A DNA stretch of 64,000 nucleotides, taken from assembly GCA_965178125.1 (NCBI GenBank), contig OZ237751.1, forward strand, positions 1,054,001 to 1,118,000, given 5' to 3'. Both the position numbers and the translations under genes were made by a program. The notes under the pieces were generated by a model, which was not told the DNA's origin, ran no database searches, and worked only from the letters and a program-made list of their open reading frames with translations. Source of the DNA: Bilabrum cf. latius. Lineage: Eukaryota. Each line of letters begins with the position of its first letter. The first letter of the stretch is position 1. Below are positions 8,800 through 51,690 of the stretch, piece after piece.

Positions 8800-9200
8800 C
8801 AGCATGACCACGCCATCTGTGATGTGGAGACCCAACCCTGCTTCGCCACAATCGAGATGCTGGCAGTCCTCGTCCTCAGGGGCTTCCAACAGCCCGAGGT
8901 TGTGCCGATTCCCAGAGTGGTGCGCATGCTCTTCCACTCAGGTCGCACTTAGCCTAGAGTGGCCCCGCGCCTGCCAGCCTCGTACAACCCCATCGGGCTG
9001 CCCGACCTGGGAACGGATGGCATGAAGCGGATCGGCGCTCGCCCTGCTTTCCACAGAGGCGCTGTAGAGGGCCAGCTGGTGCATGACGATGAGACGGTGG
9101 GGCGTGCCCTGGAGGTCTTGGACGGCGCAACGCCGGCTGCAGCTGCTGCGCCCTGCCCGGGACAGGGAACTCTCAAGCAAGTCCCTCGGCCTCTTGTCCG
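8800..9200 (+). pseudogene. Degenerate 3' fragment of the unknown gene family also at ~25.2-26.9 kb and ~43.0-45.7 kb
   Basis: LRGFQQPEVVPIPRVVRMLFHSGRT..YNPIGLPDLGTDGMKRIGARPAFHRGAVEGQLVHDDE matches 26569+ and 45396+. Frameshifting deletion near 9125 and a TGG>TAG change at 8949. Confidence 0.65.
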
Positions 9201-12200
9201 TGAGTATACGTCACAGGGTGGTGTGCAGGTGGCTCTTGCCGTTATAGCGAAAGCGGGCAGTCGAGTGAGTCCCGGATCTTGTCGGTGGTTTGCGATGAGC
9301 AGCTCGTGCCTCGCGGAGGGGTTCAGCGATAGGCATGGTGGAAAGCAAATACTGCCATTGGAAGACTCGTTTGTAAAAGACAAGTCAGACATAGTATTTC
9401 AGCCATAATCTAGGTAGAGACAGCACTAAGGTGGGGCAAAAATGATAGCGTATACTTTTGGGCAATACCGGAATCTCAGGTAACCAGATCTCACCCACCA
9501 AGGCGTGGTCGACTCTTCTCCCCATTTGCTGTCACGGGACTGCGGCTGTATCCGCAACCCGAGGACTGCGTTTTCGAATCCCTTTTCAGTGTGTTTTCAG
9601 CTAGCACATTTTACCGGATGCAGCGCGCACAGGTCGTGCTTTTCGCGGCCGTGGCAGTCTGCGTCGCGGCCTCCGACGTGTTCTATTCTGAGCTCTCGGG
9701 GCGCGGCGATGCCCTCAAGCGGCGCGATGAGGCCATAGCTGGGGCAATGGATGATAAGGCTCTTTTTGTTGAGGGTCGAATCGCCAGCAATGGCAAGCCT
9801 ACGGTCATGATCGACGATGGTGAGCAGAACGCGTCGACGAAGTCGCTCAACTGCAACTGAAGGTTATGCGGTCGTTGCGTTGCAGCTTCCCATACAATAA
9901 TAATCTTATTAGTTGATACTACCCTATCATTCTTTGTTCGCAGAAGGAGTGGCCTCGAGCGAGGATCGAACCGGTACGGTCAGCCCAGCAGCGGTGACGG
10001 GCGCGGCCCACGCCGCCTCAGAGGACGCCGTGTACGTTTTTGGGGGCACCTCGGACGCTGCTTCTGGAAGCAAAGTGCTCAAAGATACCTACAAATTCAC
10101 ATACAGTGAGTGCGTGCCAATATTGCTGCACAGCGATCGGGGTGGGGGGCGCAGAGGCCGCCACTGGCAGTGACGTCTGCCCGCAGGTCCGCCCACGTAC
10201 ATCCCGCTCCACGCTTTTTCCAGCCGATTGACTGCCGATCAGCCATGCACTCGCTGGCACCTCAATCATTCCTACCCATGCATTTAGGATCATTGTGATT
10301 TTCGTCTTACTTTGGCACCCCTCATTCCCTCCCCGCAGGCACCAAGAGCTGGACCAAGATGACCATTGCCACTGACACGCGGGTGGTGGCCCGCACCGGT
10401 GCCTCCGCCGCCGTCCTGTCCGACTGCCGCGCAGAGGGTGACGAGTGCTTGGTGGTATTCGGCGGTCTCACCGGGACCAGCGCCGCCAGCCCGAACACGG
10501 ACGTCCTCACCACGGGTGAATCCACGGTGCAGTGGCTCAATCCAGCAGGGGCCAAGGTGGGCGAGAAGCCCCCCGGGCTCATCCACGCCGCCATGGTGCC
10601 CGACCCCATGGGCCGCACCGCCGTCTTGTTCGGCGGCAAGACTTCGGCGGATGACGAGGACGCCACGGACGCCGTCTTCGCCATGAACTCGGCCGGCTGG
10701 AAGGACCAGTCGCTGCTTGCCAACATCGCGAGGGGCAAGTCCGTGTACATGACCAAAGCCAAGCAGCCTACTAACACGGGCCATGCCTTCCACCCGTCGA
10801 ACGCCGTGGACGGGCGCACCGCCAGCAACCGAGATGCGGGGTACTGCGCTCTGGCGGATCGGGTCAACAACCCAACCATCTCGGTGGATCTCGGGGGTGC
10901 TCGCACCGTCACGGAACTCGTCATTTACCCGCGAACGGACTACGCGACCGGGTACGGCAACACGGTCAACGCCCGGTTCGTGGTGAATGATCACCGCACA
11001 GACCCTCTCAACAGGGACGGCAACTGGCACGAGTGCGAGAGCCCCTACTCGAGCGGCAGGCTGCCCGTGCCCTCCCGCATCTCGTGCGGCAGCGTCACTG
11101 GGCGCTACGTCCACATGTTCCGCCGCGCCAACGATATCCAGCTGGACGTGTGCGAGATCCAGGTTATGGCCCCTCATCCCTACACGTGGAAGCAGTTCAA
11201 CTACGGCGAGGTCGAGGTGGCAAGGGGCAAACCCACCGTGGGGACGCCCATCGCCCACAGTGGTGTGTGGAGCCGCATCAATGATGGGGGCAAGAACCAG
11301 AGGTACAACTCCGGTAAAACGTGCACGCACTCCATCAACACCAAGCCTGCGGGCGAGACACACCACTGGGTCCGGCTCGATCTGGGCAAGCAGTACCAGC
11401 TCAACAGGGTGAAGATCTGGAACCGGTGGGAGGGCGAGGCCCTGGCACGCCGCCTGCGCAAGACCGAGGTATGGGTGGGCAACGTGGGCGACGACTTCAA
11501 GCTCAACACAAAGTGCGCCCAGCTGCCCGACAACACGGCTACCGTCAACACGTACGAGACGGCCTGTGAGGGAACAGGGCGCTACCTGTGGGTGGCCAAG
11601 TCCTGGGCCGATACGAACGATGACAAGGTGCTAACGGTGTGCGAGCTCGAGGTGTACGCCAAGCAGATGCTCAACGTGCCGGCCGCCAGGTCTGGACACG
11701 CTATGACGCACCATCGGGGGGCGGGTTGGATCTTCGGCGGCATTGGCAAGGACGGCAAGGCTCTGAGTGACCTGCACGCGCTGGACCTCGCGTCCATGAC
11801 CTTCAATACGGCGCTTCAGGTCATCGGGGACCTGCGGCCCTCTGCCCGTGGGTTTGCAGCCCTGGCGCCTGCTGGCCTAGAGGCGCTGGTGCTCGTGGGA
11901 GGGCGCACAGGAAGCTCGCTGGCATCGACTCGGGCCGAGAAGGACTACACCATCACGCTGCCGCAGTGCCAGAGCATCAGCACCACCGGGGTGACCGACA
12001 GCGACTGCTACAGGGGCAGCTGCGAGTACACGTGCAACACGGCAGGCGAATACAGCCCCACCAACCTGGCGGGCGGGCCCCCAGTGACGTGTGAGCTGTC
12101 TGGGTACTACTCTGGCTCGCTGCCCGTGTGCTAGGGCAAGGTCCCGACCAAGGTCACTGTCATCAACACCGGGACTGGCGACAAGAGCCGGCTAGTGGAC

Positions 12201-15200
12201 GGCAACAGGAAGGTGCGCGTGGTGTGGAACACGAACGGCGTGCAGAACGGGTCACCTTCTACCTTCACTGGGTTTTTGGTGCGGTCCTCCTCCATGCACT
12301 TGGCGGAGAACTTTGACACGATCTCACAGCTTCCCCCCGGGTGGGAGTGGGACAACCGGCGCAGATCGGCGACCAAGTTCACGATCGGCAGGAGCGCCAA
12401 CGGGGATGGCTATTTGGATCTGTCCATGGACGGCCAGGCAAACTGCTGGTTGAGCACCCAGAACTGCCCTCGCCTCCTCATCCCGCACCCCCACGGCATC
12501 ATCGACCACAACATACTTGACACACAGAACCGGCACAGGGGCAACTCGTGGACGGCCGAGGTCCGCGTGCGCATGACCACGCTCCAGCCGGGGAATGCAG
12601 CTGCCGGCCTTGGCATCGTGCAAGATTCCGGGTCGGACGGGAACCGCAACGGACGGGTGCGTTTCATGTTCATGCTACGTCGTAACGCGGGCGAGACCCG
12701 GCTCAGGTGCCATGTGCAGGAGAACCAAGGTACCAAGGGCACTGACCGCATGCTCTACGGCACTGGGCCTCTGCAGAGGGACGTGTGGCTGCGCATGAAG
12801 TACGATGTGATTGGCAATCGATTCACTTTCTTCTGCCGCATGAATCACGAGACGACGTGGCAAACGGTCATACCCAACGGTCTGTTCCCACCCAGCCACG
12901 GCGGAGACCTCACCTATGGCCGGGTGATCCTGACGGGCAAGAACTGGTCCAACCGGCAGCAGGTGTTCCGCTTCGACAGCTTTTCTCTGACGGTGGACGA
13001 CTGCCCCTCCTCCGCGATCACACGCTTCATTCCCGCCGCGGATGCCAGGATCGGCACGACGACCAGGTACTAGGCCGACATCGGGGGCCTGACGGCTGGC
13101 GTGTACTACAAGATGCAAGTGGCTGCTGCCACAGAGGCCGGGCTGGGCGACTGGTCCGACTTCACCTACCGGCACCGTGCATCGCCCAACCTAGCCAGGC
13201 CTGCTGGTCTCTTCAACATGGCTCGCAACAAGCCCGTGGCTGCATCCAGCATCCTCAATGACGACAACGAGGCTGAAGAAGCCGTCGACGGAGAGCGAAA
13301 CGGGCCCCTCTTCCGATCTGAGGAGAGTGAAAACCCGTGGTGGCGGGTAGATCTTGGCTCTCGCAAGCGAGTGTGGGAAGTGGTCATATATCAGAGAACG
13401 AACTGCTGCAGGGGTCGCGGACAGGGTGGAATGGTGTACGTGAGCGACACGCCCAGCTGGTCAGCCGGCACCGCCTGTGAAGGCATCATGAACCCGCATG
13501 GCTCCAACCCGGTGACCCTCCCATGCAACGCCATTGGTCGGTATGTCTATGTGCGGCTGCAAAAGACCAAAGAGTTCCTGGAGCTGCGGGAGGTCGAAGT
13601 CATGGTGGACGAGAAGTGCGACACGAGGACCCCGCTCAACACCAACACAGAAGGCACGTGCACCGGAGCCAGGGACGGCGACTCGTGCACGGCCACGTGC
13701 CAGGCAGGCTATGCCAAGTCATCGGGGGAGGAGACGGCCGTATGCAGGTTTGGCGAGTGGTCGGTCCCCGAGCCCGTGTGCGTCAAGCAGTGCCCCTCCG
13801 TTCCTGCCCCCTTGGGTACCGAGACATGCACGCAGACAGTGGCTCGCGAGCAATTCACCAAGCTGGCCTCCGGGGCCGACCCTAACCTAGAGCCCATCCT
13901 GCGATTTGCCTCGCTGGACGAGGACACATTCCCGCTGAACGAGTACTGGGGCGTTATCGACGGGCGCATGGTGGCAGGGGCTCCGGCCGTGGACGGGTCC
14001 ATGGGCAAGTGCCTGCTGCCCGGCCAGGGGATGGTGGCCATGCTGCAGGACCCGGATCCCTCGGCCATCGACGGGTCCGTCAAGATCACAGTCAAGCTGG
14101 CGGGCGAGGATGACGCCGGCCTCGTGTTTGGGGCGGCGGGGCCAAGCACGTACACGTTCGTGTCCTTGGGCTTTGTCACGGGCAAGCACAGGCTGGTGAA
14201 ACGGATAGGAGGCGTGGACATTGAGCTGGGCTCCTCCAGGGCATCGGTCCGCGCGCTGGACTCGTCCATCCCCATGGACAAGCACGAGCTGGAGGTGCGC
14301 CAGGACGGTGCAAGTCTGCTCGCACTGCTGGACAACGTGCGCCTGTTTCAGGTGGAGGACAAGGCCGCGCTGGTCGGAGACGTGGGGCTGTGGACGCAGG
14401 GCCGTGCCGAGTTTGACGACCTCGAGGTGCACACTGCGTGTCTGACATCTGGTGGCGCGGCAGTTAGCGGGTGCAGGGACTTGTTTTACCAGGACACGTG
14501 CGGTTTCACGTGCAGGCAAGGGTTTGACCTTGTGGGGCAACAGCAGGTCGGCTGCAAAGCCGACGGATCGCTGTCCTCGGCTGCACCTGACTGCTCCATC
14601 CGGCCCCCTGTTGCTTTGGACCAGAACCGCACGGTGGTGGAGGAGTCAGACCGCAACACCGCTGTGGGTGACCCCTTGGTGGCCACACTGGAGGCCGACG
14701 AGCAGATCGAGTTCTCTATTACGGGGGGTGATCCGAATGGGGCCTTCAAGGTCGGTCTGTGCGACGGGCTGATCCGAGTGAAAGACCCGCAGCTGATCGA
14801 CTACGAACAGGTGTAGGTGTATAATCTGGAGGTGACCATCGGAATCAGCGGATACAGGGCCAATACGACTATCGCTGTGCGAGTGGATATCATCGACAGG
14901 AACGAGGCACCCTCCATGGACGCCTAGAGCTTCAACGTCTCGGAGAACTCGGCCTCTGGCACACTCGTGGGCGGGGCCCTTGAGGACCTAGCCGAGGATC
15001 CCGAGGATGACGACCTCACGTTTTCTCTGGATTTTGACGCCTCCAACGGGCTACTGCAGATCGACGCAGCTACGGGGCAGTTGAGCGTGAACCACTCGGC
15101 GCCAAGCGGAGCCACCGGTGCATCGCACCCATTGGACTATGAGTCGCTGCCCGGGGACGGGTCCTACCTTCTCATCGTTCGAATGGTTGACGTGGCTGAC

Positions 15201-18200
15201 AACCAGGCAAGCGCGTTCGTGCGAGTGTCGCTGCTGGACGCCAACGACGCCCCCCAGTTGGACAGAGGCGAGGCAGCCTATGCGTCGCTGCCCCAGCCGC
15301 AGATCGCCAGCTTCGACGAGAGTCGGGCCGATCCAGACGCAGTGACCGCCGGCGCCTTGATTGAGCTCAGCCCTGGGATCGCGGCCAGCGACCAGGACCT
15401 CGAGGAGTTTGAGTCTCCATTGACATACCGCTTCACGTCCAAGGGGGCGCAGGGGAGCGCCGCGCTCTCTGGGCTGGTCACGAAGCTAGCCACGGCCGGG
15501 GGTACCCCTTCCTCTGCTTCCGGGCAGACGCTGCAGGGGATCGGGAGCGTGGACCTGTTCGCCCTCAACTCCAGCACGGGCGTGATCTCCCTCACGGATG
15601 TGCCTAGCAGCGACGGATGGTCCAATTCGGGCGATTTTCAGCCGTACCTTTCGCAGGACGCAGCCCCTCGAGGGCTGCTGGTGCGGGCCGAGTACGTGGT
15701 GGAGGTGGAGGTGTCGGATGGAAACGGTGCTACAGACACCCACGACGTGCGCATCGTCGTTGGAGCCAACTCGTCCAGCATTCCCATCGTGCGGAGGCTG
15801 TCGTGCGATGTCAACAATACGGACGCCGACCCAGACCTGTACCGCATCAGCGGTGTCGACGGACAGGACGAGACTCTGGGCATGGACGAGTCGTACCCAT
15901 ATCCCACCCGCGGAGGGGCGCTCTGCATCATCTCTGGTACTGGACTGGGCAGCAACATCAATGGGCTCCGTGCGTGGGGCACCCGCACTGTTGGCGGGCA
16001 GGAGCAGGAGGTGGACTTCACTGGGTGCGTGATGGAAGAGGTCGGCCAGGTGATCCACTGCAACTCGCCGGAGGGATTTGGAGAGGGATTTGTCCTCCGT
16101 GTGTTTGCGCAGGGACAGCCGGCGCTCATGGGTTCTCAGCTGCGCTTCGATTTTGCCAAGCCCAGCGTGACCACTGTGAGCGAGAGTGCACAGGCGTTGG
16201 CCACGGAGGGAGGGACCGAGGTAGTCTTCAAGGGCCGTAACTTCGGGCCCGCAGGTGCGGAGCAGGAAGTATCGTATGAAAACCAGAGGGGGCAGAAGTT
16301 CCAGTGCGCAGTACTTCCAGCCTCTAGTCTACTCGCGGGAGAGACGATCCACGACACGATGCGGTGCGTGGCGGCCGAGGGTGCTGGTGCGGAGCTGCAG
16401 TGGACGCTGCAGCTGGGCAACGAGACTCAGCTGGCCGTCAAGTCAGCGGGTGGGGCGGGGATGAGTGCGGAGGACCCGCTGGTTAATAACATGCTGGCAG
16501 CCTTCAGCTACACGCCCCCACGCATCACGTCCCTCGCTCCGCTAGACAGGCGCGAGACGGATCTGCTGGCCCTGGACACCCGCGGCGGAGACACGTTGGT
16601 CATTGAAGGCACCAATTTCGGGCCAGCAACCGAAGTAGCAACAGTGCACCTGTCATACTCTGCATCCAGCGTGGTGCGTGCGATTGCAGGGAGCGGTGTG
16701 GGGCAGCTGGGCAGCTTTGAGACGACCATGGCTAGCTGCTACAAGCCCGAGGGGGGCATGCAGGCGCACCGGCTTATGCATTGCGTGACTGGTCCCGGCG
16801 TAGGTCGCGGGGTGGTGCTGCAGGCAGAGGTAGCAGGGCAGATGCAGGGCTCTCCAACGTGCTATGACGGCGCCGTGGACGAGGGCGAAGCGTTTATCGA
16901 CGACCAGGATGTGATGGACCGATGCAACAACGGGACAGGCGTTGTTGGCTTCTTGTCTTACGCTCCGCCTACCATCGCGGCAGTCGTGGGGGCGGACGGT
17001 TCAGACACGAGGGGCGGGCAGTCCTTCACCATCCAGGGTACGGGTTTCGGTCCCGAGGAGCTAAGCGTGCAGGGCAGCGTCTCTGGTGTGAGGTATGGGC
17101 CTGCGAGTTCCGGCAATCTGCGGTACGACGCGACTTCGACGTGCCGCGTGACTGTTGCCGATACTGACATCGAGTGCGTGACGCTGCCGGGGACGGGCAT
17201 GGATCTGGGCTTCTCCGTTGAGGTGGCCGGGCAGGCCGCATCTACTGGGACGCTTGCCACAGCCCATGCCTACGCACAGCCGGTGCTGGCTACGTTTGAT
17301 GGCGAAGGGGCGGTTGATGCCGAGACGCCGGGAGGACAGACCATCGTACTGCGGGGCAACAACTTCGGGCCGATTTCCACTCCTACCACGCCCATGGACG
17401 CCACTTACAACCTCGCTGTGGCAGGTGCAGGCACCACGACCTTCAATGCGGCCGACTGCGTGCTGGTGGATGCGCACGTTACGATCGAGTGCAAGACGGC
17501 CGAGGGCGCAGGTAGGGCGCTGGCGTGGACCGTCGTGGTCGACTCGCAGCCCAGCCGCAGCCCCACGACCAACTATGAGGTGCCCGAGATCCTGGAAGTG
17601 CACCGACTGGGGCAGCAGGGTGTGCGGGTGGCAGATGCAGACGTGGATGGAGGAGATACACTGGTTCTCGTGGGTCGCGGGTTCGGGTCGCCTGACCTGC
17701 TGCTGGCGGACCCAGAGACGGGCGAGTAGCACCCAGCGCTGCAGTCCGTCACGTATGGCCCATTGTCGGGGCGCGAGTACACGCCCGCGAGCGTGACGCA
17801 CGTCTCACACACGGAGATACACATTGTGACGGCCCCCGGCTGGGCGCGGATGGCCTTCTTCAGGGTTGAGGTGGCGGGACAGGCGTCCCCCCCAGGTAGC
17901 CCCGATGCCCCCGAGGCCACTTTCGATTTTGCCACGCCGATTATTGTCAGTATGACGCCTGAATCGACCCAGGACACGTGGAGTCCTCCAAGCACACCTC
18001 AGTCGGTAGTGCTGGTTACGCGGTCGCTGCCCCTGTCGGACCCGCTGTCCAGGCCCGTGGTGAGCTTCGGGGGGCACGTGCTGCGGCCCACGGCGGCCGT
18101 GTCCAACACGGACGGCACGCAGACGGTCACCTTTGCGTTGCCCGAGCATGGGGGCGGATTTGCGGTCCCTGTGCGTGTGGGTGTTGCACCAATCGCGGGA

Positions 18201-26568: not shown

Positions 26569-26900
26569 GGCTTCCAACAGCCCGAGTTTGTGCCAATTCC
26601 CAGAGTGGTGCGCATGCTCTTCCACTCAGGTCGCACTTGGCCTAGAGTGGCCCCGCGCCTGCCAGCCTCGTACAACCCCATCGGGCTGCCCGACCTGGGG
26701 ACGGATGGCATGAAGCGGATCGGCGCTCGCCCTGCTTTCCACAGAGGCGCTGTAGAGGGCCAGCTGGTGCATGACGATGAGACGGTGGTGCGTGCCCTGG
26801 AGGTCTTGGATGGACTCTACATGGCGCAACGCCGGCTGTAGCTGCTGCGCCCTGCCCGGGACAGGGAACTCTCAAGCCAGTCCCTCGGCCGCTTGTCCGT
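25150..26900 (+). pseudogene. Unknown gene family member with an internal ~0.93-kb deletion relative to the copy at 43-45.7 kb
   Basis: Matches ~42980-45676 except that ~44133-45063 is missing at ~26232. In-frame TAG at 26139 and 26839. Confidence 0.6.
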
Positions 26901-27497
26901 GAGTATACTTCACAGAGTGGTGTGCAGGTGGGCAGTCGATTGAGACCCGGATCATGTCGGTGGTTTGCGGAGGGCTCGTGTAACAGCTCGCAACTTGAAG
27001 GCTTCCCGTCTGGCGCTTTACGCAGTGCTTGGACGAGTTGACAAGTCGCAAGCGTAACAGAGATGACGTCGAAGGGATGAACAAGGAGTCAAAGGTAGAT
27101 ATGTTGGACGGGATGCGAGAAGTGGGAAACAGAGACAGAACGTGGGAGGGTGTGGTGCAGGTCTGGTGTTGTGGTGGGAACTGGAGGGGTTCAGCGATAG
27201 GCATGGTGGAAAGCAAATACTGCTATCGGAAGTATCAATAGTCAGACATAAGTCAAACGCGGTATTTTAGCCGTTATCTAGGTAGAGAGAGCAGCAAGGT
27301 CAAGCTAGAGCAAATTGGTAAGACGGGGTACTAGTAGCGCGTGCTTTCAAAGTTTGAGCATTACCAGATTTCACCCGCCGTCGCGTGCTCGACTCCCCGC
27401 TCCATTTGGTGTTCCGGGACTGCGGCTGTATCCGCAACCCGAGGACTGCATTTTTGATTCCCTTTTCAGTGTGTTTTCAGCTAGCACATTTTACCGG

Positions 27498-33400: not shown

Positions 33401-36400
33401 GGCAGACGCTGCAGGGGATCGGAGGCGTGGACCTGTTCGCACTCAACTCCAGCACGGGCGTGATCTCCCTCACGGACGTGCCTAGCAACGACGGATGGTC
33501 CAACTCGGGCGATTTTCAGCCGTACCTTTCGCAGGACGCAGCCCCTCGAGGGCTGCTGGTGCGGGCCGAGTACGTTGTGGAGGTGGAGGTGTCGGATGGA
33601 AACGGTGCCACAGACACGCAGGACGTGCGCATCGTTGTTGGAGCCAACTCGTCCAGCATTCCCATCGTGCGGACGCTCTCGTGCGATGTCAACAACACAG
33701 ACGCCGACCCAGACCTGGACCGCATCAGCGGTGTCGACGGACAGGACGAGACTCTGGGCATGGACGAGTCGTACCCCTATCCCACCCGCGGAGGGGCGCC
33801 CTGCATCATCTCTGGTACTGGACTGGGCAGCAACATCAACGGGCTCCGTGCATGGGGCACCCGCACTGTTGGTGGGCAGGAGCAGGAGGTGGAATTCACT
33901 GGGTGCGTGATGGAAGAGGTCGGCCAGGTGATCCACTGCAACTCGCCGGAGGGATTTGGAGAGGGATTTGTCCTCCACGTGTTTGCGCAGGGACAGCCGG
34001 CGCTCATGGGTTCTCAGCTGCGCTTCGATTTTGCCAAGCCCAGCGTGACCACTGTGAGCGAGAGTGCACAGGCGTTGGCCACGGAGGGAGGGACCGAGGT
34101 AGTCTTCAAGGGCCGTAACTTCGGGCCCGCAGGTGCGGAGCAGGAAGTATCGTATGAAAACCAGAGGGGCCAGAAGTTCCAGTGCGCAGTACTTCCATCC
34201 TCTAGTCTACTCACGGGAGAGACGATCCACGACACGATGCGGTGCGTGGCGGCCGAGGGTGCTGGTGCGGAGCTGCAGTGGACGCTGCAGCTAGGCAACG
34301 AAACTCAGCTGGCGGTCAAGTCGGCGAGCGGGGCGGGAATGGGTGAGGAAGATCCACTGGTCAATAACATGCTGGCGGCCTTCAGCTACACGCCCCCACG
34401 CATCACGTCCCTCGCTCCGCTGGACAGGCGCGAGACGGATCTGCTGGCCCTGGACACCCGCGGTGGAGACACGTTGGTCATTGCGGGTACCAATTTCGGG
34501 CCAGCAACCGAGGCAGCAACAGTGCACCTGTCATACTCTGCATCCAGCGTGGTGCGTGCGATCGCAGGGAGCGGTGTGGGGCAGCTGGGCAGCTACGAGA
34601 CGACTATGGCCAGCTGCTACAAGCCCGAGGGAGGCATGCAGGCGCACAGGCTTCTGCATTGCGTGACCGCTCCAGGTGTGGGTCGCGGGGTGGTGCTGCG
34701 GGCAGAGGTAGCAGGGCAGATGTAGGGCTCTCCAACGTGCTATGACGGCGCCGTGGACGAGGGCGAAGCGTTCATCGACGACCAGGATGTGATGGACCGA
34801 TGCAACAACGGGACAGGCGTTGTTGGCTTCTTGTCTTATGCCCCGCCTACCATCGCGGCAGTCGTGGGGGCGGACGGTTCAGACACGAGGGGCGGGCAGT
34901 CCTTCACCATCCAAGGTACGGGTTTCGGTCCCGAGGAGCTAAGCGTGCAGGGCAGCGTTTCTGGTGTGAGGTATGGGCCTGCGAGTTCCGGCAATCTGCG
35001 GTACGACGCGACTTCAACGTGCCGTGTGACTGTTGCCGACACGGACATCGAGTGCGTGACGCTGCCGGGCACGGGCATGGATCTGGGCTTCTCCGTTGAG
35101 GTGGCCGGGCAGGCCGCATCTACTGGGACGCTTGCCACAGCTCATGCCTACGCACAGCCGGTGCTGGCTACGTTTGATGGCGAAGGGGCGGTTGATGCCG
35201 AGACGCCTGGAGGACAGACCATCGTACTGCGGGGCAACAACTTCGGGCCGATTTCCACTCCTCCCACGCCCATGGACGCCACGTACAACCTCGCAGTGGC
35301 AGGTGCAGGCACCACGACCTTCAATGCGACCGACTGCGTGCTGGTGGATGCGCACGTTACGATCGAGTGCAAGACGGCCGAGGGCGCAGGTAGGGCGCTG
35401 GCGTGGACCGTTGTTGTCGACTCGCAGCCCAGCCGCAGCCCCACGACCAACTATGAGGTGCCTGAGATCCTGGAAGTGCACCGACTGGGGCAGTAGGGTG
35501 AGCGGGTGGCAGATGCAGACGTGGATGGAGGAGAGACCCTAGTTCTCGTGGGCCGCGGGTTCGGGTCGCCTGACCTGCTGCTGATGGACCCAGAGACAGG
35601 CGAGTAGCACCCAGCGCTGCAGTCCGTCACGTATGGCCCATTGTCGGGGCGCGAGTACACGCCCGCGAGCGTGACGCACGTCTCGCACACGGAGATACAC
35701 ATTGTGACGGCCCCCGGCTGGGCGCGGATGGCCTTCTTCAGGGTTGAGGTGGCGGGACAGGCGTCCCCCCCAGGTAGCCCCGATGCCCCCGAGGCCACTT
35801 TCGATTTTGCCACGCCGATTATTGTCAGTATGACGCCTGAATCGACCCAGGACACGTGGAGTCCTCCAAGCACACCTCAGTCGGTAGTGCTGGTTACGCG
35901 GTCGCTGCCCCTGTCGGACCCGCTGTCCAGGCCCGTGGTGAGCTTCGGGGGGCACGTGCTGCGGCCCACGGCGGCCGTGTCCAACACGGACGGCACGCAG
36001 ACGGTCACCTTTGCGTTGCCCGAGCATGGGGGCGGATTTGCGGTCCCTGTGCGTGTGGGTGTTGCACCTATCGCGGGAGGGGACCGTGCGGCACCCGTCG
36101 GTGCTTCGATGTCTCAGCTGCTGGACGGCCCCACTGGGTCCTCGAGCACTACTTTCTTCCAGTATGATGCGCCGGCCGTGGAACGCATCGTAGTGACTAG
36201 GCCGGCGTGGTTGCAACCGGGGTACGTGGCTGGGGCCATGACCCCGATGGACGACAACTGCACGTTCGGCGCTGGCGACCCGTTCACGTGTACCGACCGC
36301 AACGTGAGGCAGGTGGTGATCCTGGGACGGGGTTTCTCCGCCCCGGCCGGGTTTAGGTCCGAAGCGGATCCCCTTGGCCTCCTGCGAGGGGACGCCTCCA

Positions 36401-39400
36401 TGGTACCGCTCAACCGGTTCCCGCTCGTTGTGCGCACGTACTCGCACAACCGGATCCTGGCGTACACCACGGAGCAATCCGGCACGGTGCGGGTGTCGGT
36501 CAGCAACACGTTGCCAGTGGAGCTGCTGGACCCTGGCATGGACGAGGGCCGCGGCATGCAGGCGGACGTGATGGAACAACGCTCCTCGGAGGGCTCCTGG
36601 ACCAACCTGGCGCCCAACATCGCGGGCCTGCAAGGAGCCACGACTGGGCTGCCCACCAGGGGGCAGAGCGCGCAGGATGGTTCCCCGTCCGAGGGTAACG
36701 GCTTGACTGTGACGGTGGATGGACTCGAAACCACCAAGCGGGTGCGCATCCTGGCGGGGGCCTCCGCTGATGAGGCCGTGCCATGCCGCGTGTGGTCGCT
36801 GCTCAACGAGGAGTGGATGGTGCTGGGTGCCACTGATGACGAGCAGTACGATGCGGTTCAGCGAGAGGTGATCGACGTCATCGATGGAAACCTGGCTCAG
36901 GGCGAGCAGGCCGTGTATCAGCTGACATTCTTGGTGCCCGAGGCTCCTGCAACGGCCAGTCGACTGGACGATATGCGCATATTCGTGGACCGGGAGGGTA
37001 CTTTGTCGTCGGGTGACCAGTCGTTTGGATATGCGCAGCCCTACGTGGCAGCCGTGGACGTTTGGCGGCCACCTGCATTCGTGGCGGGGACGAGCTATCC
37101 TACCACTCCCAATGCCCCCGAGGCGCATTGGGCCCGAAGCATGGTGGCAGGAGACTCGGCGATCGTGTCCGTGCCAACGAAAGGCGGCTGGGTGCGGGTA
37201 CGGGGCCAGGATCTCACACTATGCCCGCTGCTACGAGTGGCTGATGGCGCGTTATACACGTGTGATGACGGCATTACCTCCCACGGACATCCGGCGGGAG
37301 CAGTGGCAACCGGGCGCTTGCCCTGCAACTCCGGCGCCCCTGGTCTAACCGCACCGTCGCTGCACGAGTGCTTCATCTCGCCCGTACCGGAGGGAGAGGG
37401 AGACGGCTTGCAGTACAACGACACGTCGACGGGCTTCATGCTGGACGTCGAGGCGGGCAGGCAGTCAATGCTGCTGGCCGAGGACCTTGAAGACGTCGAG
37501 GCCGCCGGTGTCACAGATGGAGCGGGGGGGATCGTGCCCAGGAGGCCTGGCGACGGTCTCACCGCCGTGCGGCTGGCCAATTTGGTCCGTGCCCAGCTTC
37601 ATTACACGCATGATATGCCCACAGTGCGGCAAATCACGCCTGTGCAGGGGCCTGCCGTGCCCACTGCGGGTGGGGTCCGCATGCTTGTGCTGGGCGACAA
37701 CTTCGGCGTCACGTCTCCAGCCCGCGAGCCGCAGATGATGTCGATCCCTGGGTTTATCCAGGTACATGTTGCGGTGCCAAGCAACCGATTTGGGGCACCC
37801 GAGGTGTATGGTCGGCCTTCCGAGTGGGTGCACTGCACGAATGCGACAAGGCTTGACCACGAGCGTATCGAGTGCAACCTGCCCGAGGGTGCGGGTCAGG
37901 GTCTGCCCGTGAGGGTGTTGGCTGCGGGGCTGCAAGGCGAGCAGGACGGGCTGCTGTCCTATGATCCTCCGGTGGTGACTGGGCTTGCCCTGCATGGTTT
38001 CTCGCCTGCTTTCTTGCAGGCGATCAGCGACCCCACCCGCATGCAGCTGCCAAGGACCACCACCACGGCGAGCGAGGCAGACCCAACGGGCCTGCTGCAG
38101 ACGGCTGCAGTGTTCGCCGACCCAACGTTGCAGGTCCAGGTAACCAATGCCTCAGTGCGCTTCTTACTGGGCCCCGTGGTGCTGCATTCGACAGACGACA
38201 CCCAGCTGCAGCTCGGGGGGGTTCCCACGTGGGGCGCGCGGCCGGGGCTCGTGAGAGCCGACCCCTCGCATCCCGCGGCAGCGCACGTCACTCTGTATGG
38301 ACGGAACCTAGGCCGGCGCGGCGCCGTGGGAGACCCTCGCCTCTGTGTGTTTGCCTCATGGATCCACCGTGCCGCCGACTCTGAGCTGAACTGCGATGGG
38401 GTGGAGAGCTTCCCCGGCGAGGGCGAGGTGCCCCAGGCCCGCGTGGTGGTGCACACACACGACCGCATCACGTTTGAGCTGCCCGAAGGTGCGGGCTAGC
38501 GTGACATTGACGTGTCTATTGGCGGGCGACAGCTGGTGCAGGCTGCGCTATCGCAGCCCCGCCTCATGTACGGTGCGCCCCTCATCGGCACAGTCAGTCC
38601 CCTGAGCCCAGCCAGCGGACCGACCACGGGAGGCTACGAGGTGACGCTCAGGGGATCCAACTTTGGCCCCAAGCAGCGCAACACCTCCATCCCTCGATTG
38701 GCTCTGGATGTACAGGGCGCCGTCCTTGTGCCACCACTGCCACTTGCCGAAGCCCCAGGCATGCCCACCGAGTACCTGGTGTTGTCTTTCTACCGCAGCT
38801 GCATCACGGATGCGCGGTCCCCGGAGGGCATCCGTCCGTAGACCGGCAGAACCGCTGGCTGCAAGTACGAGCTGGTAGATCGCGACCACGATTTCGTGAC
38901 TTTCCGAGTGCCTGAAGGCATCGGAGCGTCCCGGGATGTGGCCGTGGAGGTGATGGACGCCGCTGTTGCCATGGGCACCGTTCCCCAGGGCCAGGAAGAG
39001 GGGTACTACGGATACACGGGTATGCAGCGGGCGGAGAGTCCAGGCGCTTTCTCGTACGATACACCTACTGTAGATCGCACGGATCCTGCGCGCGTGTACA
39101 TGGGTGCCCAAGGGCTTCTGGAGGACTACAGAGGGGCGCTGCAGGCGGCTCGTGCTCGCATGCTGGAGCTTGGCGCTGAGGAGGACGAAGCACGCGTGGG
39201 CGACGTCAGCGATGCCATCAGGCTGGAAGCACAGTCTCCGTTGCGGCAATTCATCAACAGCGGGGCCTTGGCTTGGGGAGACGAGCTGGAGGCGCTGCGT
39301 GCTGCTCGTCAGCCCACGGATCCTCCGATCGAGGGGCCTTCCAAGAAGGTCTTCCTCTTCGGTCGCAACTACGGCAACCCCGCGCTGGCGGTGGAGCAGG

Positions 39401-42099
39401 AGTGGACGGAGGAGGAGCTCAGAGTTGCAGTGGCAGTGGGCGGCATCGACTGCATGACCGCTCAAAGAGGCCGCAGTGCCGTCACGGATGATCCGAGCGA
39501 GGACCCGGCGTCCACGCAGGTGGAGTGCGAGATCGAGGCGCTCACAGTGGGGTACAAGAACGTGACGCTTGACATTGCGGGGCAGCAGGGGCAGCTTGCG
39601 GCAAGGACGGGGACTAGTGGCGTGCACTTTGTGTGCGCTCCAGGGTCTTTCGGAACGGACGGCAGGTTCTGCCTCCCGTGCCCCGTGGGTGCAGACTGCA
39701 GCGGCTACGATACCGACCTGCGCGAGTCCACGGTGCCCCGGCCGCAGACGGGCTTCTTCAACCTCAACTCGTCTGACCCCGTATCCGGTGACATGACCGA
39801 CGCCGAGTGCCCCGAGAGGAGGCAAGTGCCCACCAGGGACGTGTGCGTGGTGGCGTGCGAGCCGCAGTGGGCATGCACCGGCGACAACTTCTGCGCCATC
39901 GGGTATGCCAGCAAGGCGCCCATGTACAGGTGTAGCAGCTGCGCAGATGGCTTCTACCGGCGAGCGACGGAGTGCGTTAAATGCCCTGACAACCCATGGA
40001 TCCTAATTGTGGCCTTCGCTGTGCTGGCCGTGGGCGCATGTGGCTTCGGGTTCTGGCTGAACCAGTCCAAGATCAACATCGCACTGATTGCCATCGGCGT
40101 GGACTACTTCCAGGTGCTCGCCATCTTTGCTAACGCTCGAGTGCAGTGGCCCCCGTTGCTCAAAGACATGTTCCACATCCTGTCCGCCTTCAACCTCAAC
40201 CTCGAGATCACGGCCCCCGAGTGTACGGTGCCCGACTTGCAGTACATGACCAAGTGGTTCTTCATAATCCTCCTGCCCGTTGCCGCCATGGTTATGGTAC
40301 TGCTCACGTACCTGCTTGGCATGGTGTACGTGTGCGCCAAGAGCGGCAGGTGCAAGCAGCCCAAGGACAAGACCAAGGACGAGCTGGCTCCGCTGGTGGC
40401 GGGCGCCATCGTGCTGAGCCTGTTTCTGTACCTAGTCACCACGCGGTCTATCCTGGACGTGTTCAACTGCATTCCCACCAGTCCCCCCGATGGCCAGCTG
40501 TACATGCAGGCCGTGTTTGAGCCTTGCGGGCAGAAGGGTGGCGTGCAGCAAACCCTACTGCCTTTCGCAATCATTGCGCTGGGCGTGTACACGATCGGGT
40601 TCCCCACGTGGGTGGGCTTCATGCTGGTAACGAGCCGCAAGACGATGCTGCTGGACCAGCTGATGCGTGCCATCGGCAAGGGTAACGACATCAATATCGA
40701 TTGGCCCAAGGACGTGCAGGATGCGTGCCAGTTCAGGCAGCGGTACCAACGTCTGTACTACTACTTCAAGCCCGAGTACTACTGGTGGATCGTGACCATC
40801 CTGGCGCGCAAGGCCCTGATTGCCTTCTGCTCGCTCTTCTTCAACACCAACGCGTCCTTCTAGATGGCCGCCGTTAACATGGTGCTGTTCTTGTGTTACA
40901 CGGCCCAGGTGCGCTTCAACCCGTACATGCCGCCCGCCGACTACGCCGAGGTCATCACTGGCTGGGCCCAGAGCGCGCTGGACTCAAGCGCAAAGGACGC
41001 GCGCACCCCAAGCCGTTTGGCGGTCAAGGACATCGAGCAGGCCGCCAGAACCAGGAGCGACCAGGCCGGGGCGGCAACCTCGAGCGCAGCCGGGTCGGTG
41101 ATCCGAGACTCTGCCGGCCGGGCCGTGACCTCACGAGACGTGCACGGCGAGCTGTGGTTCAAGATCCGGGAGGTGATCACCTCGTTGGACAGGAGGGACC
41201 AGCGAAGATTCGGTACCACGATGGACAGCGCCACGACGGGCGGGAGACAAGCAAAGCAGACGGCCATTGGCGGGCTGGGCACAAGCATCGGGGTACTGGG
41301 CAACTCGCTGATGAACTGGAACACAGTTGAGACGCTTCTGCTCTTCTGCGCCATCATGGTGACGCTGGGTGGCATCATGCTCGAGTCAGGTAGGCTGGAT
41401 CAGGAGGGCGCCGAGGGCCAGCGGGACGCTCTGACTATCCTGCTGATGCTGGTAATCATGGTGTCCATCGTGTACTACTTCACTGTGCTCTTCACCGAGG
41501 TGTACGTGCTAGTGACGGACGCCCAGGACCGCAAGGCAGCGCAGATCCAGAAGGCGGCCAAGCTAAGGAAGAAGGGCGTGGCGGGCGGTGCTTCTGCACC
41601 CAGCGCTTCCGGCGTCATGGAGGAGGTCGAGATCGATACGTCTGGCATGCAGCACCAGAGCAACCCGGCCTTTGCCTCTCAGAAGGGCAGAGAGTCCGAG
41701 GCGGGGAGCCAGGCTATGGCGGGGCAGATCAAGGAGATCACAGGGCTGGAGAACATGGACAAGGAGACGTGGACACGGCTGCGGCCCCAGCTGGAGGATT
41801 TCGCCGGCAGGTTCGGCGAGATGAAGGAAGAGATTGACGCCCTCAAGAAGGACCTCTCCAGGGCCCACGCCAGTGGTGGCAGCGGTGGAGTGGGAAGTCG
41901 CAGAGGGACGCTCACCGGGGTTGCTGGTGGGATGAGTGGCAGCGGCATGGCGGCCAATCCCATGCAGGCTTTGAGCGGCGGGTCACGGAGGTCATTTGGG
42001 CCTCGTGGCACAGGGGGTGGCATGGGAGGGAGGAGAGCGAGCAAGGGGCTGCTGGCGGCTTAGCGAAGGGCCTCCCTGAAAGGGATCGGGAAGGAATGA
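27498..42099 (+). CDS. Giant (~4,747 aa) cell-surface receptor/adhesion protein, copy 2. Exons 27498-27699, 27824-27985, 28220-42099
   Basis: Paralog of 9618-24221. Single frame interrupted only by TAG at 30013, 30949, 32368, 34723, 35494, 35605, 38497, 38839, 40861 and 42061. Ends at TGA 42097-42099, the position homologous to the copy 1 stop. Confidence 0.92.
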
Positions 42100-45676: not shown

Positions 45677-45861
45677 ATTTCGGAGGTGCTCTGTTGCAGG
45701 CTCAGCTTGAGAGGATCGCCTTCAAGATGATGATCCAATGGGAATCTCACTAAGTGTATACTGAAATTCAGTAACTGAATATGAGCCAGTGTACCCCAAT
45801 GCAGGTCCGAATCCGAAACGATCACATGCCAACCATCCGGATACGTTGCAACCACGTCTTC

Positions 45862-46191: not shown

Positions 46192-46213
46192 TAAGGGTAA
46201 CACTAACCCCTTT

Positions 46214-51579: not shown

Positions 51580-51645
51580 TTAGGGTTAGGGTTAGGGTTA
51601 GGGTTAGGGTTAGGGTTAGGGTTAGGGTTAGGGTTAGGGTTAGGG

Positions 51646-51690
51646 TATCTAATATAAAGTCAGGGACAGGGTCGGGGAAAAAATATTTTC
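51646..51690 (-). mobile_element. Element E5, 45-bp leader-only stub
   Basis: Leader sequence alone between two TTAGGG tracts. Confidence 0.65.

What the first reader, a model, noticed from the sequence alone, without database searches (positions are those of the whole stretch)
9618..42099. Non-standard nuclear genetic code: TAG encodes glutamine, shown by TAG/CAG swaps between two paralogs
Seen: each ~4,750-codon paralog has exactly 10 in-frame TAGs, no in-frame TAA or TGA and no frameshift. Six TAGs are shared (12132/30013, 13071/30949, 17727/35605, 20619/38497, 20961/38839, 22983/40861). All eight unshared TAGs align to CAG in the other copy, four in each direction: TAG 14814, 14925, 19140, 22266 vs CAG 32692, 32803, 37018, 40144; CAG 14490, 16845, 17616, 24183 vs TAG 32368, 34723, 35494, 42061. 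TAG therefore behaves as a synonymous Gln codon. Known: TAA+TAG=Gln is NCBI table 6; TAG-only Gln (table 15) is rare in nuclear genomes (for example the fornicate Iotanema). Inference: this GC-rich, TTAGGG-telomere organism may represent an independent reassignment.
Basis: partly seen in the sequence, partly recalled or inferred. Interest (0 to 1): 0.95.

Follow-up and report, generated by a model that had tools for sequence, protein, structure and literature searches.

The report
TAG read as glutamine, eukaryote
In this unidentified GC-rich eukaryote, and in related organisms seen in metagenomes, the stop codon TAG is used inside genes as a codon for glutamine, a rare kind of genetic-code change that is already known from a few other protist lineages.

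Summary
Two tandem paralogs (9618-24221 and 27498-42099, three exons each, 4748 and 4747 codons) each carry 10 in-frame TAG and no in-frame TAA or TGA. There are 14 TAG columns. Six are shared and eight pair with CAG, four in each direction.

- One shared TAG sits on a column that is Q in 26 of 29 homologs.
- In codon alignments with related metagenome contigs that also carry in-frame TAG, TAG pairs with Gln in 19 of 24 cells.
- Nine of nine relatives' gene-caller fragments that align to their C-terminus stop exactly before a Q of this protein.
- A relative's TrmO gene has TAG on the Q of its conserved PRQ motif.

dN/dS is 0.14 overall and 0.04 downstream of most TAGs, so the genes are translated through them. 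TGA ends all five independent genes.

TAA was never seen in frame: 0 against about 12.5 expected if TAA were also Gln. A TAG-only code is therefore likely but not proven.

The taxon, tRNA-Gln(CUA), eRF1 and RNA could not be examined. I rate it a new member of a known kind.

The parts
9618..9819 (+). Giant gene copy A, exon 1: start codon and signal-peptide-like N-terminus
   Evidence: the ATG is followed by a hydrophobic leader, the donor is GTGAGC, and the spliced CDS stays in frame
9944..10105 (+). Copy A, exon 2 (Kelch-like stretch)
   Evidence: acceptor CAG, donor GTGAGT
10339..24221 (+). Copy A, exon 3: 13.9 kb with 10 in-frame TAG, ending in TGA. It encodes Kelch, three F5/8 type C domains, Sushi, cadherin, IPT/TIG repeats, a Cys-rich ephrin-receptor-like region and a multi-pass C-terminal membrane domain.
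27498..27699 (+). Copy B, exon 1
27824..27985 (+). Copy B, exon 2
28220..42099 (+). Copy B, exon 3: 10 in-frame TAG, ending in TGA
12132..12134 (+). TAG, residue 592 of P0001; shared with 30013-30015
   Evidence: No informative outside comparison: two distant hits have R and E
13071..13073 (+). TAG, residue 905; shared with 30949-30951
   Evidence: The relative's fragment P0168 (85% identical) ends exactly before this column. A 44%-identical hit has R here
14814..14816 (+). TAG, residue 1486; CAG in copy B at 32692
   Evidence: Q in 5 of 5 close relatives, which come from two clusters
14925..14927 (+). TAG, residue 1523; CAG in copy B at 32803
   Evidence: Q in 2 of 2 close relatives and in 241 of 442 distant cadherin-repeat alignment cells. 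Fragment P0177 ends here
17727..17729 (+). TAG, residue 2457; shared with 35605-35607
   Evidence: No outside comparison was made
19140..19142 (+). TAG, residue 2928; CAG in copy B at 37018
   Evidence: No outside sequence covers this column
20619..20621 (+). TAG, residue 3421; shared with 38497-38499
   Evidence: CAG in L001 and TAG in L002
20961..20963 (+). TAG, residue 3535; shared with 38839-38841
   Evidence: CAA in L001 and CAG in L002
22266..22268 (+). TAG, residue 3970; CAG in copy B at 40144
   Evidence: CAG in L001 and L002, so TAG is derived in copy A. The column is variable in the wider family (Q in 4 of 38)
22983..22985 (+). TAG, residue 4209; shared with 40861-40863
   Evidence: Q in 26 of 29 homologs and M in 3. 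CAG in L001 and L002
32368..32370 (+). TAG in copy B only; CAG in copy A at 14490 (A residue 1378)
   Evidence: Q in 4 of 4 close relatives. Fragment P0172 ends here
34723..34725 (+). TAG in copy B only; CAG in copy A at 16845
35494..35496 (+). TAG in copy B only; CAG in copy A at 17616
42061..42063 (+). TAG in copy B only, 12 codons before the TGA; CAG in copy A at 24183
   Evidence: This is a variable tail: A, A and P in L001, L003 and L004
6291..6293 (+). In-frame TAG in the neighbouring class-V aminotransferase-like gene (about 3214-6692), followed by 132 more codons before the TGA at 6690
   Evidence: GC by codon position after the TAG is 0.79/0.52/0.80, like coding sequence; after the TGA it is 0.57/0.51/0.56. 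The match of the tail to the homologs' C-terminal profile is weak (E 0.16)
43412..43414 (+). In-frame TAG in the downstream gene D (43028-45064, no known family); conserved in the truncated unit-1 copy at 25547
44042..44044 (+). Second in-frame TAG of gene D; conserved in unit 1 at 26139
53936..53938 (-). In-frame TAG in a duplicated minus-strand gene (53702-54757); the same TAG is in the second copy at 61709-61711. A further TAG at 54272-54274 lies in a 6-codon segment that the second copy lacks.
   Evidence: The extent of this gene is not verified by homology

Best explanation
[quoted passage not shown] UGA is the working terminator. UAA is most likely still a stop, or at least is not used as a sense codon.

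Shown:
- TAG is translated through in long genes that are under purifying selection.
- The amino acid at TAG behaves as Gln.
- The trait is shared by related organisms in metagenomes, so it belongs to a clade and is not a quirk of one gene or one assembly.

Inferred from what is established for other UAG-to-Gln lineages, and not tested here:
- A tRNA-Gln with anticodon CUA, charged by GlnRS, decodes UAG.
- eRF1 has lost UAG recognition while keeping UGA, and probably UAA.

Because CAG and TAG differ by one transition and are synonymous under this code, they interconvert neutrally. That produces the four-each-way swaps between the 3%-diverged paralogs.
For: 1. Open frames. The two CDSs have 4748 and 4747 codons, each with 10 TAG and no TAA or TGA. 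Off-frame counts in copy A are 68-90 TGA and 8-12 TAA.

2. Selection. Between the paralogs dN/dS is 0.136 overall, and 0.036 in the last 768 codons, which lie downstream of 8-9 TAGs. There are 275 synonymous and 104 non-synonymous codon differences.

3. Paralog swaps. All 8 unshared TAGs pair with CAG. TAG is the commonest changed partner of CAG (TAG 8, CAA 5, GAG 2, CAC 1, CGG 1).

4. Conserved column. Residue 4209 is Q in 26 of 29 homologs and M in 3.

5. Related contigs. L001, L002, L003 and L004 carry 7, 4, 1 and 3 in-frame TAG in the homologous ORF and no TAA or TGA.
- Among A, L001 and L002, TAG pairs with Q in 19 of 24 cells; the others are A, K, R, S and E.
- Background Q is 4-5%, and CAG/CAA pairs with Q in 45-59% of cells.
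- The four window TAG columns covered by L001 are all CAG or CAA there.

6. Fragment ends. 12 relatives' predicted fragments are at least 45% identical to the protein. Nine align to within 4 residues of their C-terminus, and all nine stop just before a Q of this protein, three of them at window TAG columns. Q makes up 4.2% of the protein.

7. Close relatives at further TAG columns. They have Q at columns 1378 (4 of 4), 1486 (5 of 5) and 1523 (2 of 2).

8. Conserved enzyme motif. L001's TrmO_N domain (Pfam E 3.7e-32) has TAG at the Q of PRQ. That position is Q in 3 of 4 solved homologs and H in the fourth.

9. Other window genes. The aminotransferase-like gene has 1 in-frame TAG, gene D has 2, and the minus-strand gene has 2.

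10. Gene ends. All five independent gene ends in the window are TGA.

11. Eukaryotic nuclear context. There are GT..AG introns and TTAGGG arrays.

12. TAA. It occurs 0 times in 10,884 codons from 10 genes, against 12.5 expected if TAA:TAG followed CAA:CAG (P about 5e-5). Using only the ORFs whose extent is verified by homology (A, L001 giant, L002), the expectation is 5.0; I worked out P of about 0.013 by hand from that call's fractions.
Against: - No RNA or protein evidence. No listed run is on record as RNA, so U-to-C editing of the mRNA is not excluded.
- No tRNA gene lies in the window and no genome is held, so tRNA-Gln(CUA) and eRF1 are unseen.
- Some TAG columns are not Q in relatives: residue 905 is R in a 44% relative, residue 592 has only R and E in distant hits, residue 3970 is Q in only 4 of 38 family members, and 5 of the 24 pooled partners are not Q. 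This is what is expected at variable positions, but it does not add support.
- Three of the 12 fragments project to K, D and P. They do not align to their ends, so the projection is unreliable.
- The TAA argument is partly circular, because ORFs were delimited by TAA and TGA. The only TAA-ended homologous ORF (L003) ends TAA-TGA, which fits either reading.
- The support for the aminotransferase tail is weak (E 0.16).
- Paralogs, orthologs and fragments all come from one gene family, plus one TrmO gene in a relative. No genome-wide sample was available.
Confidence: 0.9

Rival explanations
1. Both UAR codons mean Gln, as in NCBI table 6 (ulvophyte green algae, hexamitid diplomonads, the oxymonad Streblomastix, the aphelid Amoeboaphelidium, many ciliates). 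TAA is absent from these genes only because the genome is GC-rich.
For: - TAG=Gln is shown, and TGA ends 5 of 5 independent window genes, as expected when TGA is the only stop.
- No gene end was found that needs TAA as a stop. L003 ends TAA-TGA.
- In copy A alone only 1.2 TAA would be expected.
- UAR-to-Gln is far commoner than UAG-only among known lineages (passages of PMC5304391 and PMC11687900).
Against: - There are 0 TAA among 36 UAR codons in 10,884 codons, against 12.5 expected from CAA:CAG usage (P about 5e-5; about 0.013 for homology-verified ORFs only).
- This includes L001, where CAA makes up 33% of CAR codons and there are 7 TAG and 0 TAA.
- In-frame TAA is purged as completely as TGA: 0 in frame against 8 and 12 off frame.
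Confidence: 0.15
2. The code is standard, but nuclear transcripts are edited U-to-C at these sites, so that UAG becomes CAG before translation.
For: Every comparison made here is at the DNA or predicted-protein level, and all of them would look the same under editing. No RNA run could be laid.
Against: - The 36 sites lie in 10 genes and several species. New TAGs arose recently at sites that are CAG in relatives (columns 1486 and 3970), so each new site would need immediate and near-complete editing.
- From my own knowledge, not from a call: systematic U-to-C editing of nuclear mRNAs is not an established mechanism in any eukaryote, whereas UAG-to-Gln recoding has arisen repeatedly (PMC11687900 passage).
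Confidence: 0.03
3. TAG has two meanings that depend on context: Gln inside genes and stop near the ends of transcripts. Ambiguous codes of this kind are known from the ciliates Condylostoma and Parduczia and from karyorelict ciliates (titles and abstracts in the listing).
For: Only five independent gene ends were seen, so TAG-terminated genes elsewhere cannot be excluded. Copy B has a TAG 12 codons before its TGA.
Against: - None of the five gene ends is TAG.
- The late TAG in copy B is CAG in copy A.
- The aminotransferase-like gene keeps coding-like composition for 132 codons after its late TAG.
Confidence: 0.05
4. The genes are decaying subtelomeric pseudogenes or contain assembly errors, and the TAGs are nonsense mutations.
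For: The genes lie next to TTAGGG and satellite arrays, in a tandem duplication where one downstream gene copy is truncated.
Against: - There is no TGA, TAA or frameshift in 4,748 codons, and dN/dS is 0.14 overall and 0.04 in the C-terminal domain.
- TAG lies on conserved Q columns.
- The same pattern appears in related contigs.
- Error-free contigs from three studies cover five of the TAGs.
Confidence: 0.01

Closest known systems
Iotanema spirale (fornicate) nuclear code: UAG=Gln, with UAA and UGA as stops
   Same: UAG is reassigned to Gln. UAA appears not to be reassigned. The organism is not a ciliate. (PMC5304391 abstract and passages; PMC9161772 passages.)
   Different: - Iotanema's code was inferred from a transcriptome. 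Its eRF1 has a changed GTS motif (T replaced by G) and UAA is its dominant stop (passages).
- Here eRF1 is unseen and every gene end seen is TGA.
- This genome is GC-rich (52-71% in 2-kb windows) and carries TTAGGG arrays.
- Relatedness to fornicates was not tested. The gene families found point to no particular group.
UAG-only Gln in ciliates (Protocruzia tuzeti, two phyllopharyngean lineages); NCBI table 15
   Same: The codon meaning is the same (PMC11687900 discussion passage).
   Different: - This window is a long chromosomal stretch with 14-kb genes, a tandem 17.9-kb duplication, 60-70% GC in genes and TTAGGG repeats.
- From my own knowledge, not tested here: ciliate macronuclear DNA is usually AT-rich and has G4T2- or G4T4-type telomeres.
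UAR=Gln lineages (NCBI table 6): ulvophyte green algae, Hexamita, Streblomastix strix, Amoeboaphelidium protococcarum, many ciliates
   Same: TAG=Gln and TGA is the terminator (PMC11687900 passage; PMC5304391 passage).
   Different: TAA is a sense codon in those lineages. Here there is no in-frame TAA in 10,884 codons against 12.5 expected. I could not exclude that the organism belongs to one of these groups, because no taxonomic marker was available.
Other split-UAR codes: rhizarian exLh (UAG=Leu), Scotinosphaera (UAG=Ser)
   Same: UAG is reassigned while UAA is kept as a stop (PMC11687900 passage).
   Different: The amino acid here is Gln. No Leu was seen opposite TAG, and Ser only once in 24 partner cells.

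Membership tests
Nuclear code with UAG=Gln and UAA/UGA as stops (table-15-like; Iotanema type) | In-frame UAG in genes that are demonstrably translated and under selection | tested here: met
   There are 10 TAG in each 4.7-k-codon paralog. dN/dS is 0.136 overall and 0.036 in the last 768 codons. TAA and TGA are purged from the frame. In-frame TAG also occurs in three other window genes and four related contigs.
Nuclear code with UAG=Gln and UAA/UGA as stops (table-15-like; Iotanema type) | UAG columns correspond to Gln in homologs | tested here: met
   Q in 26 of 29 homologs at residue 4209. 19 of 24 ortholog cells are Q. 9 of 9 fragments that align to their C-terminus stop before a Q. Q in 4 of 4, 5 of 5 and 2 of 2 close relatives at three more columns. 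The PRQ motif of TrmO in a relative carries TAG at the Q. All 8 paralog swaps are with CAG.
Nuclear code with UAG=Gln and UAA/UGA as stops (table-15-like; Iotanema type) | UAA is retained as a stop and not used as a sense codon | tested here: inconclusive
   No in-frame TAA in 10,884 codons against 12.5 expected (P about 5e-5; about 0.013 on homology-verified ORFs). However, no gene end was found that can only be explained by TAA termination. L003 ends TAA-TGA, and the TAA end of the L001 TrmO ORF is not verified.
Nuclear code with UAG=Gln and UAA/UGA as stops (table-15-like; Iotanema type) | UGA is a stop | tested here: met
   TGA ends the ankyrin gene, the aminotransferase-like gene, giant genes A and B, gene D and the minus-strand gene, and also the L001 and L004 homologs. 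There is no in-frame TGA in any of the 10 genes.
Nuclear code with UAG=Gln and UAA/UGA as stops (table-15-like; Iotanema type) | A tRNA-Gln with anticodon CUA | not testable with these tools
   ARAGORN finds no tRNA in the window, Rfam finds nothing, and no genome is held.
Nuclear code with UAG=Gln and UAA/UGA as stops (table-15-like; Iotanema type) | eRF1 altered in its stop-codon recognition motifs | not testable with these tools
   eRF1 is not in the window and no genome is held.
UAR=Gln code (NCBI table 6) | UAA used in frame as Gln alongside UAG | tested here: not met
   36 TAG against 0 TAA in frame. Power is limited and the test is partly circular for ORFs whose ends are not verified by homology.
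Eukaryotic nuclear gene (as opposed to phage, organelle or prokaryote using code 15) | Spliceosomal GT..AG introns and eukaryote-type chromosome features | tested here: met
   Two introns (GTGAGC..CAG and GTGAGT..CAG) are conserved in both copies, and splicing keeps the frame. There are TTAGGG arrays. The domain set (Kelch, discoidin, Sushi, cadherin, IPT/TIG) and the homologs are eukaryotic.

The most novel reading that the evidence does not exclude
The window belongs to a eukaryote clade whose genetic code has not been described. The clade has several members in environmental metagenomes: contigs 38-76% identical at the protein level, and predicted fragments up to 86% identical, all showing in-frame stops at Q positions. 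On this reading the clade reassigned UAG alone to Gln, independently of ciliates and of the fornicate Iotanema, and did so in a GC-rich genome. GC-rich composition should favour G-containing stops (my inference), so TAG would not have been rare simply through AT pressure. This would be a new and genomically tractable case for asking how UAG and UAA recognition are uncoupled.
Probability: 0.45. Interest if true: 0.75.

Novelty: new member of a known kind. Interest (0 to 1): 0.62.

Why it matters
Changes to the nuclear genetic code are rare. Cases in which UAG and UAA have different meanings are rarer still. The 2024 discussion I read lists only a handful: a rhizarian, Iotanema, Scotinosphaera and a few ciliate lineages (PMC11687900 passage).

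A further lineage would add an independent data point on how release factor and tRNA co-evolve to separate UAG from UAA. This one has long genomic contigs, a GC-rich genome and several environmental relatives.

There is also a practical consequence. Standard-code gene callers cut this organism's genes into pieces. The databases hold its relatives' giant gene only as fragments that end at Q positions. A fragment 99.6% identical to this protein starts at the first Met after the TAG at residue 905. Any annotation of this genome made with the standard code will be badly wrong.

Tried and rejected
- Whole genome: none is held. A genome-wide codon inference and searches for tRNA-Gln(CUA), eRF1 and 18S rRNA were therefore impossible.
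- tRNA scan of the window: 0 genes.
- Rfam on the window and L001-L004: 0 matches.
- Sequencing runs: 9 holders from 4 studies, with no RNA holder listed.
- Read laying returned contigs only, and 570 of its 610 difference rows were not shown. Only five of A's ten TAGs could be confirmed by error-free contigs, and nothing can be said about expression or editing.
- Scans of genome contigs and viral contigs with P0026 found no relative.
Run on the database homolog P0010 instead, it showed only that the C-terminal domain family is eukaryote-wide, with haptophyte and chlorophyte labels and ephrin-receptor-like and TRP-like family tags. This gives no placement.
- Naming the organism: named homologs were Aureococcus for the giant protein, at about 25% identity, and oomycetes, Blepharisma, Balamuthia and bacteria for the aminotransferase-like gene, at 33-37%. 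The oomycete proteins carry a PP-loop fusion that is absent from the window. Cluster look-ups gave no names. I could not place the taxon.
- Aminotransferase tail after TAG 6291: a profile built from 91 homologs aligns its C-terminal positions 521-564 of 579 with the tail, but only at E 0.16, and BLAST gives E 0.006 at best. I count this as weak. The codon-position GC pattern is the better evidence.
- The repeat finder on 45-64 kb was swamped by TTAGGG and added nothing.
- The codon-usage line was computed one base out of frame and is replaced. The TAG positions are correct.
- Literature: seven answered searches and one search rejected for a malformed term found no report of UAG=Gln in a GC-rich organism outside the ciliates and fornicates. 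The library omits most subscription papers, including the aphelid genome paper I recall. Supplements were not consulted.

Full report
**1. The observation**

Under the standard or bacterial code, the two long plus-strand regions break into pieces of 400-950 codons. Reading TAG as a residue fuses each region into one frame, 10359-24221 and 28240-42099, of 4620 and 4619 codons.

Neither frame has an internal TAA or TGA, and both end in TGA.

The two copies align with 415 mismatches in 13,857 bases (97.0% identity). They differ by only three one-codon indels, so there is no frameshift.

The codon alignment gives these counts:
- 4621 columns, of which 4239 are identical, 379 differ and 3 are gapped.
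- With TAG read as Q, 275 of the differences are synonymous and 104 are non-synonymous.
- There are 14 TAG columns. Six are shared and eight are TAG against CAG, four in each direction.

It is the ATG of a signal-peptide-like exon. Two short introns with GTGAGC..CAG and GTGAGT..CAG boundaries are conserved in both copies. Splicing them gives in-frame CDSs of 4748 and 4747 codons plus TGA.

**2. Is it more than chance or error?**

The two non-coding frames of copy A can be compared with the coding frame:

| Codon | Off-frame counts | In-frame count |
|---|---|---|
| TGA | 90 and 68 | 0 |
| TAA | 8 and 12 | 0 |
| TAG | 20 and 9 | 10 |

TGA and TAA are purged from the coding frame as stops should be. 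TAG is not.

The genes are under purifying selection. dN/dS is 0.136 overall, and 0.036 in the last 768 codons, which lie downstream of eight or nine TAGs. The ribosome therefore has to pass every TAG efficiently. Ten low-efficiency readthrough events in series would leave essentially no full-length protein (my inference).

Public runs from four studies hold this DNA. Contigs with no differences cover the TAGs at 12132 and 13071 (run X7), 14814 (X9), and 20619 and 20961 (X1). The rest of the difference table was cut, and X1 may be the assembly's own source.

**3. Which amino acid?**

Paralog swaps. All eight unshared TAGs face CAG, and TAG is the commonest changed partner of CAG (TAG 8, CAA 5, GAG 2, CAC 1, CGG 1). 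On its own this could partly reflect transition bias, so I looked for evidence from outside the paralog pair.

(a) A conserved column in the membrane domain.
- A search with the C-terminal membrane domain found 35 shorter homologs, mostly from metagenomes.
- At the shared TAG of residue 4209 (22983 and 40861), 26 of 29 aligned homologs have Q and 3 have M.
- At residue 3970 the column is variable, with Q in 4 of 38.

(b) Related metagenome contigs.
- Two of those hits, P0041 and P0026 (77% and 80% identical to the protein by BLASTP), are pieces of one gene on one metagenome contig, which I fetched as L001.
- L001, L002, L003 and L004 carry the homologous ORF with 7, 4, 1 and 3 in-frame TAG and no TAA or TGA.
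- In a codon alignment, the window TAG columns 3421, 3535, 3970 and 4209 are CAG or CAA in L001, and L002 shares the TAG at 3421.
- Pooled over A, L001 and L002, TAG faces Q in 19 of 24 cells. The other five are A, K, R, S and E.
- For comparison, Q makes up 4-5% of residues, and CAG/CAA faces Q in 45-59% of cells in the same alignments.

(c) Fragment ends.
- A full scan of the representative library with residues 560-1560 found more fragments from close relatives.
- Of 12 fragments at least 45% identical, nine align to within four residues of their own C-terminus. All nine end exactly before a Q of this protein.
- Three of those nine end at window TAG columns (905, 1523, and 1378, which is TAG in copy B).
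- The other three fragments leave 6-10 residues unaligned and project to K, D and P.
- Q makes up 4.2% of the protein.
- Standard-code gene callers are evidently stopping at the relatives' Gln-coding stop codons.

(d) Relatives that read through.
- Close relatives have Q at column 1378 (4 of 4), column 1486 (5 of 5, from two clusters) and column 1523 (2 of 2).
- Column 1523 is also Q in 241 of 442 distant cadherin-repeat alignment cells. These cells are not independent of one another.

(e) A second gene in a relative.
- L001 also encodes a TrmO-like protein (TrmO_N, E 3.7e-32).
- One of its six TAGs lies on the Q of the PRQ motif. That position is Q in three of four solved homologs and H in the fourth.
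- Two other TAGs in that domain fall on positions that are P, or variable, in the solved homologs. They are uninformative.

In total, nine of the 14 window TAG columns have outside support for Gln. The other five (592, 2163, 2420, 2457, 2928) have no comparison outside the paralog pair that supports Gln.

**4. Other genes in the window**

- Class-V aminotransferase-like gene (about 3214-6692, with one short intron).
  - It has a TAG at 6291 followed by 132 codons before the TGA.
  - That tail has GC by codon position of 0.79/0.52/0.80, like the coding part (0.70/0.53/0.89). The sequence after the TGA has 0.57/0.51/0.56.
  - A profile of 91 homologs aligns its C-terminal part with the tail, but only weakly (E 0.16).
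- Gene D (43028-45064, no known family). It has two TAGs, and both are conserved in the truncated copy in the first duplication unit.
- A duplicated minus-strand gene (53702-54757 and 61475-62512). It has in-frame TAGs, but its extent is not verified by homology.
- Gene ends. All five independent gene ends in the window are TGA.

**5. TAA**

Ten genes (six from the window, four from L001-L004) contain 10,884 codons, with 36 TAG, 0 TAA and 0 TGA in frame. If TAA were Gln and were used relative to TAG as CAA is relative to CAG, 12.5 TAA would be expected (P about 5e-5).

The test is partly circular, because ORFs were delimited by TAA and TGA. Restricting it to ORFs whose extent is fixed by homology (A, the L001 giant ORF and L002) gives 5.0 expected. 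I calculated P of about 0.013 by hand from that call's fractions.

The one homologous ORF that ends in TAA (L003) ends TAA-TGA, which fits either reading.

I therefore put a TAG-only code at roughly 0.75-0.8 and a table-6-like code at about 0.15.

**6. What the genes are (context)**

Each paralog encodes a giant membrane protein with these parts, from N- to C-terminus:
- a signal peptide;
- Kelch repeats;
- three discoidin (F5/8 type C) domains;
- Sushi and cadherin domains;
- many IPT/TIG repeats;
- a Cys-rich ephrin-receptor-like region;
- a multi-pass C-terminal domain with TRP-like family tags.

The nearest full-length architecture match is 25% identical, and the named hits are Aureococcus proteins. 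The C-terminal domain region has 5-15 times the contig depth of the rest of the gene in two runs, which suggests a multi-copy family.

The two genes lie in a 17.9-kb tandem duplication (9315-26231 against 27183-44134). Beside it is a 17-kb block of TTAGGG arrays alternating with a 155-bp satellite.

**7. Mechanism**

Shown: TAG is decoded as Gln, or as something indistinguishable from Gln in evolutionary behaviour. TGA terminates translation.

Inferred from the passages I read about other lineages:
- A tRNA-Gln(CUA) is the only anticodon that reads UAG but not UAA (PMC5304391).
- An eRF1 that no longer recognises UAG would be needed. Iotanema has a changed GTS motif in eRF1 (PMC9161772).

Neither could be examined here.

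**8. Comparison with what is known, and novelty**

The discussion of PMC11687900 (passages only) lists the following.
- UAG-only reassignments: a rhizarian (Leu), Iotanema (Gln), Scotinosphaera (Ser), Protocruzia and two phyllopharyngean ciliate lineages (Gln).
- UAR=Gln: ulvophytes, Hexamita, Streblomastix, Amoeboaphelidium and ciliates.

The code variant is therefore known. What may be new is the lineage.

The organism does not look like a ciliate. It has long GC-rich chromosomal DNA and TTAGGG repeats, and the contrast with ciliate genomes is from my own knowledge. I could not place it, and I cannot exclude that it belongs to a lineage already known to read UAR as Gln.

Seven answered literature searches found no matching report. 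The library is incomplete and supplements were closed.

**9. Verdict**

The reading that TAG means Gln is supported at about 0.9. A TAG-only code is likely but unproven, and an independent origin cannot be judged. I rate this a new member of a known kind, with interest 0.62.

Noticed in passing
window 46214-64000: Eleven internal (TTAGGG)n arrays of about 56-94 units, all with the G-rich strand on the plus strand. They alternate with arrays of a 155-bp satellite (4.6-8.9 copies). The block is organised as a 1176-bp higher-order unit (46838, 48014, 49190) and a larger repeat of about 7.8 kb (52064 against 59837). It looks like a subtelomeric or interstitial telomere-repeat block rather than a chromosome end.
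   Followed up: partly
window 45860-46192: A 43-bp tandem repeat, 7.7 copies at 98% identity, lies directly before the first TTAGGG array.
   Followed up: no
window 9315-26849 and 27183-45676: A tandem duplication of about 17.9 kb at 96% identity. It carries the giant gene plus downstream gene D. The unit-1 copy of gene D has lost about 930 bp (44134-45064 has no counterpart there).
   Followed up: partly
window 8805-9232, 26492-26931, 45319-45637: Three copies of an element of about 430 bp (91-93% identical) sit at the unit boundaries. They read as an open frame of unknown family with no Pfam hit. This suggests a third, partial repeat unit upstream.
   Followed up: no
window 21934-23785: The part of the gene that encodes the C-terminal membrane domain has 5-15 times the contig depth of the rest of the gene in runs X1 and X5. 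This fits a large multi-copy family that shares this domain.
   Followed up: no
window 53702-54757 and 61475-62512 (minus strand): A duplicated gene for a highly charged protein is embedded between satellite arrays. The protein has a 12-bp repeat encoding KGKS, acidic tracts, and a conserved C-terminal helical part. Its upstream open frame runs into the CCCTAA repeats. The two copies differ by a 6-codon indel that contains a TAG.
   Followed up: partly
window 3214-6692: The class-V aminotransferase-like gene carries several hundred codons of Gly/Ala/Glu-rich insertions compared with its bacterial homologs of about 580 residues. It lacks the PP-loop domain that is fused to it in oomycetes and in its best unnamed hits.
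   Followed up: partly
protein P0165 (ENA assembly), matches window 13113-14675: A 552-residue database protein is 99.6% identical to copy A over 521 residues, and its last 31 residues do not align with copy A. It starts at the first Met after the TAG at residue 905. The same organism, or a near-identical strain, is therefore present in a public metagenome assembly and was mis-called under the standard code.
   Followed up: partly
L001 5018-6391: In the related contig, a TrmO-like tRNA methyltransferase gene with six in-frame TAG lies about 500 bp downstream of the giant-gene homolog. Its ORF ends at a TAA whose role as a stop could not be verified.
   Followed up: partly
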